NCBI RefSeq assembly: GCF_045037415.1
Contig: NZ_CP173438.1
Source: Escherichia coli
GTDB lineage: Bacteria > Pseudomonadota > Gammaproteobacteria > Enterobacterales > Enterobacteriaceae
Strand: one strand, 5' to 3'
DNA length: 64,000 nt
Part shown: positions 41,693-41,732 of the stretch, one piece after another
Layout: each line of letters opens with the position of its first letter
Numbering within the stretch: the stretch's first letter is position 1
Notes under the pieces: model-generated
Databases searched by the model: none
Told to the model about the DNA's origin: nothing
What the model saw: the letters and a program-made list of their open reading frames with translations, nothing else
Made by a program: the position numbers and the translations under genes

Positions 41693-41732
41693 ATTTCGCT
41701 CTCCTTAACTAAAAAGTTAAGGAGAGCGAAAT
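41693..41732. terminator. Perfect ~16-bp-stem hairpin (TTCGCTCTCCTTAAC-TAAAAA-GTTAAGGAGAGCGAA) immediately downstream of yahK; putative terminator
   Basis: Perfect inverted repeat 36 bp past the yahK stop; AT-rich flanks but no clean U-tract. Confidence 0.35.

What the first reader, a model, noticed from the sequence alone, without database searches (positions are those of the whole stretch)
41693..41732. Unusually perfect ~16-bp-stem hairpin just downstream of yahK
TTCGCTCTCCTTAAC-TAAAAA-GTTAAGGAGAGCGAA has no mismatches and is flanked by complementary A/T bases, more perfect than typical terminators and lacking a clear U-tract. It could be a terminator, a protein-binding palindrome, or a small structured element; each arm also contains an AAGGAG Shine-Dalgarno-like sequence.
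Basis: seen in the sequence. Interest (0 to 1): 0.25.

Follow-up and report, generated by a model that had tools for sequence, protein, structure and literature searches.

The report
Stem-loop ending the yahK mRNA
A perfect 18-base-pair hairpin 36 bases after the E. coli yahK gene most likely marks and protects the 3' end of the yahK mRNA; published 3'-end mapping in K-12 already shows RNA ends at its base, so it is real but ordinary.

Summary
Window 41693-41710 and 41715-41732 are perfectly complementary (18 bp, 4-nt loop). RNA folding gives about -34 kcal/mol (z = -9), far beyond chance. The hairpin lies 36 nt after the yahK stop on the minus strand.

It occurs once per genome, in about 94% of complete E. 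coli genomes, and in no other species, plasmid or phage searched. No Rfam family matches.

The perfection is specific to this lineage. Only about 8% of genomes carry this allele. About 78% (K-12 type) have a 2-nt bulge and a mismatch in the same arm. The window allele differs from its nearest relative by one derived G>A that lengthens the stem.

No U-tract follows on either strand, so it is not a canonical intrinsic terminator.

Published Term-seq on K-12 (Adams 2021) places RNA 3' ends 1 and 3 nt past the hairpin base. It also lists a bicyclomycin-sensitive Rho termination region 36 nt further on.

Best reading: transcription runs past the hairpin, Rho terminates it downstream, and exonucleases trim the RNA back to the hairpin (Dar and Sorek 2018). 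This is a new member of a known kind, of low interest.

The Shine-Dalgarno-like motif and the adjacent small ORF are not supported.

The parts
41693..41732 (-). The hairpin, read in the yahK-sense RNA: 5' arm 41732-41715, loop 41714-41711 (UUUU), 3' arm 41710-41693. 18 perfect pairs.
41769..42818 (-). yahK coding sequence (NADPH-dependent aldehyde reductase, 349 aa), the gene whose transcript the hairpin ends.
   Evidence: annotation of the 100%-identical genome AZ167; homologues
41733..41768 (-). 36-nt A/U-rich spacer between the yahK stop codon and the hairpin (first part of the 3' UTR).
41690..41692 (-). Positions equivalent to the Term-seq RNA 3' ends mapped in K-12 (MG1655 344011 and 344013, plus strand there), 1 and 3 nt after the last stem pair. 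Transferred by alignment, not measured in this strain.
   Evidence: alignments
41546..41689 (-). A/T-rich non-coding stretch after the hairpin, shared with K-12 (about 91% identity). The K-12 Rho termination region coordinate 344049 corresponds to about window 41655. Inferred zone of read-through and Rho action.
41416..41545 (-). C-over-G, YC-rich stretch on the yahK-sense strand (C/G 1.36-1.5, 12-16 YC dimers per 78 nt). Candidate Rho loading site in this yahL-less strain (inference).

Best explanation
The hairpin is the 3'-terminal stem-loop of the yahK mRNA. RNA polymerase transcribes through it into several hundred bases of untranslated, A/T-rich RNA. Rho terminates transcription diffusely somewhere downstream. 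3'-to-5' exonucleases (PNPase, RNase II) then chew the tail back until they stall at the very stable stem, leaving a precise, protected 3' end 1-3 nt past the stem base. Shown here: the structure, its stability, its single-copy status and the absence of a U-tract. Shown in the literature for the K-12 orthologue: RNA 3' ends at the hairpin base and bicyclomycin-sensitive read-through just downstream. Inferred: that the same holds for this perfect allele in a strain without yahL, and that exonuclease trimming produces the end.
For: (1) An 18-bp perfect stem 36 nt after the yahK stop, about -30 kcal/mol for the 59-nt core and -34 kcal/mol in 101 nt, z = -9. (2) No U-rich tail and no terminator-like site on either strand in 40800-42000. 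(3) Adams et al. 2021 (PMC7815308), Supplementary file 1, lists Term-seq 3' ends at MG1655 344013(+) and 344011(+). The sequences printed there end ...GTTAAGGAGAGCGAAATAAT and ...GCGAAATA, which is 3 and 1 nt past the hairpin base. (4) Supplementary file 2 of the same paper lists a Rho termination region at 344049(+), Rho score 3.6, p = 1.8e-5, 36 nt downstream. [quoted passage not shown] (6) In K-12 the 78 nt right after the hairpin have C/G = 2.43. (7) A stable hairpin (-21 to -30 kcal/mol) is kept in all four alleles seen across about 5,090 genomes, and the loop and 3' arm are identical in the four alleles read. (8) In this strain no sizeable ORF lies on the yahK-sense strand in the ~620 nt between the hairpin and the frameshifted yahM, a situation that favours Rho loading (established knowledge).
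Against: All RNA evidence comes from K-12, which has the bulged allele and carries yahL downstream. None comes from a strain with this allele. Read counts behind the Rho score are low (32/24 untreated, 83/225 with bicyclomycin). The 800-nt windows used also cover yahL, so the bicyclomycin effect may partly reflect other transcripts. The 3' end was called in two of three growth conditions only. In the window strain the sequence directly after the hairpin has C/G of about 1, because an 11-nt segment that is C-rich in the sense strand is absent. The better C-rich zone lies 150-280 nt further on. There is no covariation support. Only one arm varies, the changes are not compensatory, and no orthologous region exists outside E. 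coli.
Confidence: 0.6

Rival explanations
1. It is a non-canonical intrinsic terminator. The long stable stem alone, perhaps helped by NusA or NusG, makes polymerase release the yahK transcript 5-7 nt after the last G-C pair, despite the A-rich rather than U-rich tail.
For: The K-12 3' ends lie 5 and 7 nt after the last G-C pair of the stem, a distance also compatible with intrinsic release. The stem is very stable. The hairpin is 36 nt after a stop codon.
Against: The tail AAAUAAUAUC has 2 U in the first 7 nt, and the consensus scan finds no terminator. A Rho termination region is recorded 36 nt downstream. Hairpins without U-tracts at 3' ends are the signature of Rho-dependent transcripts.
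Confidence: 0.15
2. It has no selected function. It is a neutral inverted repeat in horizontally acquired A/T-rich DNA, made more perfect in this lineage by ordinary mutation or by template-switching between the arms (quasipalindrome correction). Any RNA 3' end at it is an incidental by-product.
For: The element is confined to E. coli. The perfect form is a minority, derived allele. It differs from the nearest allele by one G>A at 41731 that lengthens the stem. All variation lies in one arm and includes 2-nt indels in a short CU/GA repeat. Intergenic divergence here is ordinary, about 9% against K-12.
Against: A stable hairpin persists in every allele across about 5,090 genomes, and one arm and the loop are identical in the four alleles read. 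RNA 3' ends do form at it. Even an incidental exonuclease block has the same molecular effect.
Confidence: 0.15
3. It is a protein-binding DNA palindrome, for example an operator for a dimeric regulator acting on yahL or neighbouring genes.
For: It has perfect dyad symmetry. The inner CTTAAC-N6-GTTAAG is present in all alleles.
Against: The majority allele has a 2-nt insertion in one arm that breaks the outer symmetry. The site is retained in strains that lack yahL. There are no other copies in the genome that would define a regulon. 18-bp perfect arms are far longer than usual half-sites. No binding data were found.
Confidence: 0.05
4. On the plus strand the hairpin sequesters a strong Shine-Dalgarno sequence (UAAGGAG) 12 nt before an AUG at 41737. 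This would control translation of a small ORF antisense to the yahK 3' end, in the manner of type I toxin mRNAs.
For: UAAGGAG and AUG are present. Other alleles encode a 19-aa, fairly hydrophobic peptide MLNHR(V/I/M)FINFFSLLVCDYR. A weak promoter-like site lies at 41469-41497 on the plus strand.
Against: The reading frame is not kept: 33 aa here against 19 aa elsewhere, because of a T-run length change. There is no entry for this position, gene or peptide in the supplementary file held for the Ribo-RET small-ORF study. No minus-strand 3' end is listed near 343.9-344.0 kb in K-12. The ORF region is conserved anyway because it overlaps yahK. The palindrome gives the same motif on both strands by construction.
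Confidence: 0.03

Closest known systems
Protective 3' stem-loops of Rho-dependent transcripts (Dar and Sorek 2018, NAR; PMC6061677)
   Same: A stable hairpin shortly after a gene with no U-rich tail. The steady-state RNA 3' end lies within a few nt of the stem base (K-12 data). There is bicyclomycin-sensitive read-through just downstream, and C-over-G sequence after the hairpin in K-12.
   Different: The stem is longer and more perfect than typical (18 bp with no mismatch in this allele). C-over-G enrichment directly downstream is weak in this strain. Exonuclease dependence has not been measured for this locus.
Intrinsic (Rho-independent) terminators
   Same: A stem-loop closely following a stop codon, with an RNA 3' end a few nt after the stem.
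   Different: There is no U-tract. The stem is longer and less G+C-rich than usual, and its basal pairs are A-U.
REP / BIME extragenic palindromes
   Same: An extragenic palindrome in a 3' UTR that can block exonucleases and lie upstream of Rho termination sites.
   Different: It is single-copy and has no similarity to the REP consensus. REPs occur in hundreds of copies per genome.
Quasipalindrome template-switch mutation sites (described in E. coli reporter genes; recalled from memory, not checked here)
   Same: An imperfect inverted repeat in most strains and a perfect one in a derived lineage, with changes confined to one arm.
   Different: A single G>A transition and a 2-nt indel are equally explained by ordinary mutation and slippage. 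The direction of the older changes cannot be set without an outgroup.

Membership tests
Protective stem-loop at a Rho-dependent transcript 3' end | Energetically stable stem-loop immediately upstream of the steady-state RNA 3' end | tested here: met
   Stability. 3' ends at MG1655 344011/344013 map 1 and 3 nt after the stem base of the K-12 allele. Not measured in the window strain.
Protective stem-loop at a Rho-dependent transcript 3' end | No uridine-rich tail after the stem | tested here: met
   The tail is AAUAAUAUCAAAG; 0 terminator-like sites.
Protective stem-loop at a Rho-dependent transcript 3' end | Read-through downstream increases when Rho is inhibited | tested here: inconclusive
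   K-12 Rho termination region at 344049(+), score 3.6, p = 1.8e-5. Counts are low, the windows are 800 nt and include yahL, and there are no data for this strain.
Protective stem-loop at a Rho-dependent transcript 3' end | C-over-G (rut-like) sequence downstream of the hairpin | tested here: inconclusive
   K-12 has C/G 2.43 in the 78 nt after the hairpin. The window has about 1.0 there and 1.36-1.5 only at 41416-41545.
Protective stem-loop at a Rho-dependent transcript 3' end | Longer 3' tails appear in pnp or rnb exonuclease mutants | not testable with these tools
   The supplementary tables of Dar and Sorek are not held.
Intrinsic terminator | G+C-rich stem-loop followed by a U-tract (at least 5 T in 8 nt) | tested here: not met
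   0 sites on either strand. Direct reading.
REP / other dispersed extragenic repeat | Many copies per genome | tested here: not met
   One site in the window. One locus per genome in 5,088 E. coli genomes; the two 'places' per record are taken to be the two strands of the palindrome. One hit, an E. coli-like MAG, in 100,044 species genomes. Only the same locus turns up in plasmid records, and nothing in phages.
Any Rfam RNA family | Score at or above the family gathering threshold | tested here: not met
   The best hit is mir-87 at 25.6 bits against 49 needed. All hits are generic hairpin matches.
Small protein gene with a sequestered Shine-Dalgarno sequence | Reading frame conserved among strains and evidence of translation | tested here: not met
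   33 aa here against 19 aa in other alleles. No entry in the Ribo-RET supplementary file.

The most novel reading that the evidence does not exclude
The palindrome acts on the plus strand as a Shine-Dalgarno-sequestering hairpin for an unannotated 19-aa hydrophobic peptide (MLNHRVFINFFSLLVCDYR in most E. coli). The peptide gene is antisense to the yahK 3' end, a type I toxin-like arrangement in which the yahK 3' UTR would be the antisense partner. In the window lineage the frame has been broken by a T-run expansion.
Probability: 0.03. Interest if true: 0.5.

Novelty: new member of a known kind. Interest (0 to 1): 0.12.

Why it matters
It matters little beyond annotation. It gives the yahK transcript a defined 3' end and explains an 'orphan' Term-seq 3' end in K-12 that had been filed as lying in the yahL 5' region. 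It is a clean natural allelic series of one 3' stem-loop (perfect, near-perfect, 2x2 internal loop, 2-nt bulge; -30 to -21 kcal/mol). That series could be used to test how hairpin stability sets mRNA 3'-end protection. It also shows that an eye-catching perfect palindrome can be a recent, lineage-specific polish on an older imperfect hairpin.

Tried and rejected
**Repeat family.** The arm was searched in the window. The 50-mer was searched in 5,426 E. coli genomes, in plasmids and in phages. A gapped pattern was run over 100,044 species genomes. Only the one locus was found, so this reading is rejected.

**Rfam family.** Only sub-threshold miRNA-like hairpin matches appeared.

**Covariation from other species.** YahK homologues at 86-91% identity (an unnamed Logan contig, a second unnamed one, and Salmonella bongori) sit in different gene neighbourhoods. 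Their downstream DNA is unrelated. No structural alignment was possible.

**Known small protein YahV.** It lies between betT and pdeL, not here.

**Small ORF at 41737.** The frame is not conserved and there is no Ribo-RET entry.

**Further 3'-end, TSS and Rho datasets.** Four sources were tried: the Dar and Sorek tables, the nanopore E. coli paper, a TSS paper (PMC4288677, id recalled from memory) and a Rho/NusG paper (PMC3521626, id recalled from memory). Their supplements or the papers themselves are not held.

**Literature on a yahK terminator or regulator binding.** Nothing specific was found. There are only sigma-factor SELEX peaks inside yahL.

**Mobile-element footprint or cassette boundary for yahL.** The 835-bp yahL indel has no direct repeats at its junctions and lies 147 nt from the hairpin. 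No link was found.

Full report
**1. The observation.** Window 41693-41732 reads ATTTCGCTCTCCTTAACT AAAA AGTTAAGGAGAGCGAAAT. The repeat finder reports two 18-nt arms, 100% complementary, 4 nt apart. As RNA, a 101-nt stretch folds at -34.0 kcal/mol on the minus strand. Shuffles give -11.4 +/- 2.5 (z = -9.0, none of 200 as good). The plus strand gives -33.8 kcal/mol (z = -6.8). In 100 first-order Markov randomisations of the 64-kb window, the longest perfect stem with a 3-12 nt loop was 8-13 bp. The real window has two stems of 18 bp or more: this one and one beside frmR. The feature is real and not due to chance.

**2. Context.** yahK (349 aa, NADPH-dependent aldehyde reductase) is 41769-42818 on the minus strand (annotation of the 100%-identical genome AZ167). 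The hairpin therefore begins 36 nt after the yahK stop, in the yahK-sense RNA.
- K-12 has yahL 242 nt after yahK.
- The window strain has the K-12 layout minus a clean 835-bp segment that holds exactly yahL. The junction is at 41545/41546.
- Downstream of the hairpin in the yahK direction there is then about 620 nt without a sizeable sense-strand ORF, followed by a frameshifted yahM.

**3. Distribution.**
- The 15-nt arm occurs nowhere else in the window.
- A 50-mer over the hairpin matches one locus in 5,088 of 5,426 complete E. coli genomes. The two 'places' per record are most simply the two strands of the palindrome.
- A gapped pattern covering all alleles hit only one contig among 100,044 species genomes, an E. 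coli-like MAG with the K-12 allele. The species representative of E. coli itself was not hit. It may be one of the roughly 6% of genomes without the site.
- Plasmid hits are F-prime or mislabelled chromosomal records of the same locus. Phages gave nothing meaningful.
- Rfam gave only sub-threshold generic hairpin matches.

It is a single-copy, E. coli-specific element, not a repeat family or a described RNA.

**4. Alleles.** Four alleles were read. They are written here as the variable 5' arm of the yahK-sense RNA.

| Allele | 5' arm | Pairing | Energy, 59-61 nt core |
|---|---|---|---|
| Window | UUUCGCUCUCCUUAAC | perfect | -30.2 kcal/mol |
| CMZE046 | CUUCGCUCUCCUUAAC | C/A mismatch near the stem base | -28.3 |
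| DA61218 | CUUCGCUCCACUUAAC | two internal mismatches | -21.2 |
| K-12 | CUUCGCUCUCCACUUAAC | 2-nt bulge plus the basal mismatch | -22.9 |

- The loop and the 3' arm are identical in all four.
- The identity bands and the evenly spaced listing give 403 genomes with the window allele exactly. They suggest up to about 164 with the CMZE046 type, about 500 with the DA61218 type and about 4,000 with the K-12 type. The last three are estimates from row spacing.
- About 1,069 genomes have the yahL-less layout. These appear to carry the three non-K-12 alleles.
- Over 850 nt the window differs from CMZE046 at only two sites: G>A at 41731, and one extra T at 41763. At both sites the other three alleles agree with each other, so the window states are derived.

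The striking perfection is thus a recent, minority state. It is not a conserved requirement. What is conserved is a stable hairpin.

**5. Not a canonical terminator.** After the stem the yahK-sense RNA reads AAUAAUAUCAAAG and the plus strand reads UAAUAUGUUAAAC. The consensus scan finds no terminator-like site on either strand in 40800-42000.

**6. Experimental data for the orthologue.** Adams et al. 2021 (eLife, PMC7815308) mapped RNA 3' ends in MG1655 by Term-seq.
- Supplementary file 1 lists two 'orphan' 3' ends, at 344013(+) and 344011(+). The flanking sequences printed there contain the K-12 hairpin and put the ends at ...GCGAAATAAT| and ...GCGAAATA|.
- Using the K-12 locus, these are 3 and 1 nt after the last stem pair, and 7 and 5 nt after the last G-C pair.
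- By their place in the file, the two entries belong to the second and third condition sheets. Judged from the caption order, these are LB at OD 2.0 and M63. No entry exists in the first sheet.
- The authors filed them as 163 and 165 nt upstream of yahL.
- Supplementary file 2 lists a Rho termination region at 344049(+), 36 nt further downstream. Read counts were 32 upstream and 24 downstream untreated, and 83 and 225 with bicyclomycin. The Rho score is 3.6 and p = 1.8e-5 (method).

**7. Mechanism.** Dar and Sorek 2018 (PMC6061677) showed three things about Rho-dependent transcripts. Their steady-state 3' ends are precise and lie immediately after stable stem-loops that lack U-rich tails. These ends are followed by mild C-over-G enrichment. 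They arise because PNPase and RNase II trim the diffuse Rho-terminated tails back to the stem-loop. The yahK hairpin fits on structure, on tail composition, on 3'-end position and on the nearby bicyclomycin effect. In K-12 the 78 nt after the hairpin have C/G = 2.43.

In the window strain the fit is weaker. An 11-nt segment that is C-rich in the sense strand is absent, and C/G is about 1 right after the hairpin. A C-rich, YC-rich stretch lies at 41416-41545. The long untranslated run after yahK in this strain should itself favour Rho loading (established knowledge).

I put the Rho-plus-trimming model at 0.6. The broader statement that the hairpin defines and protects the yahK mRNA 3' end I put at about 0.8.

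**8. Rivals.**
- *Non-canonical intrinsic terminator (0.15).* The distance of the 3' ends from the G-C part of the stem is compatible. The tail and the Rho region argue against it.
- *Neutral inverted repeat perfected by mutation or template switching (0.15).* It is supported by the restriction to E. coli, the derived state of the perfect allele and one-arm variation. Even so, the hairpin would still block exonucleases.
- *Protein-binding palindrome (0.05).* The majority allele breaks the symmetry, the site is kept without yahL, and no binding data were found.
- *Shine-Dalgarno sequestration for the ORF at 41737 (0.03).* The ORF is 33 aa here and 19 aa elsewhere. It has no entry in the Ribo-RET small-ORF supplementary file. 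The known small protein YahV lies elsewhere. The AAGGAG motif appears on both strands simply because the element is a palindrome. One arm also resembles the 16S rRNA 3' tail for the same reason (my reading, from memory of that sequence).

**9. Limits.**
- No RNA data exist for a strain with this allele.
- No outgroup exists. YahK homologues in other genera lie in other contexts with unrelated downstream DNA. Neither covariation nor the direction of the older indels could be tested.
- Allele counts other than the 403 exact matches are estimates.

**10. Verdict.** The feature is real, very stable and single-copy. It is most likely the protective stem-loop at the 3' end of the yahK mRNA. That makes it a new member of a known kind. 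It is already visible, though uninterpreted, in published K-12 Term-seq tables. Interest is low (0.12).

Noticed in passing
window 11050-11102: A second perfect inverted repeat, and the longest in the window: 21-nt arms ATATACTATAGGGGGGTATGC / GCATACCCCCCTATAGTATAT with an 11-nt gap, next to frmR. It resembles the G/C-tract operators bound by FrmR/RcnR-family repressors (from memory, not tested).
   Followed up: partly
window 41545/41546 (junction): yahL is absent through a clean 835-bp indel relative to K-12 (K-12 locus L002 2166-3000: the CDS plus 13 and 6 nt), with no direct repeats at the junction. About 1,069 of 5,163 complete E. coli genomes show the same yahL-less layout. A 2024 paper (PMC11057252) proposes yahL as a conserved E. 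coli/Shigella qPCR marker, and these strains would not be detected by it.
   Followed up: partly
window ~40902-41146 (minus strand): yahM is annotated as a frameshifted pseudogene in the genome that is 100% identical over window 41300-41900 (AZ167).
   Followed up: no
L005 401-470 (strain SCAID WND1-2022); also hit H1 (strain S13): In one genome an IS1 element is inserted at the 3' edge of the hairpin loop, directly after TAAAAAG, removing the right arm. Another genome (S13) carries an IS1A within the 601-nt region around the hairpin but outside the 50-mer.
   Followed up: partly
window 55884-55953: A 29-nt, 86%-complementary inverted repeat that appears to lie inside betT. By eye its sequence is the reverse complement of the one printed for an 'internal' Term-seq 3' end at MG1655 329541(+) in Adams et al. 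2021.
   Followed up: partly
window 41737-41838 (plus strand): A small ORF starts 12 nt after the hairpin's AAGGAG. It is 33 aa here and a 19-aa hydrophobic peptide, MLNHR(V/I/M)FINFFSLLVCDYR, in the other alleles. The only two SNPs in its non-yahK part both fall in codon 6 and give conservative changes (I/V/M). No translation evidence was found.
   Followed up: partly
window 41637/41638: An 11-nt indel relative to K-12 (K-12 has GTGTACTGGAG on the plus strand). It removes a stretch that is C-rich in the yahK-sense strand, from the region where K-12 shows its strongest C-over-G bias after the hairpin.
   Followed up: partly
window 24150-24196: Inverted repeat GTATGTTGTGTGAAATTGT / ACAATTTCACACAGGATAC. 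By its sequence it looks like the lac operator region (recognised from memory). This fits my reading that the window is reversed relative to K-12 coordinates.
   Followed up: no
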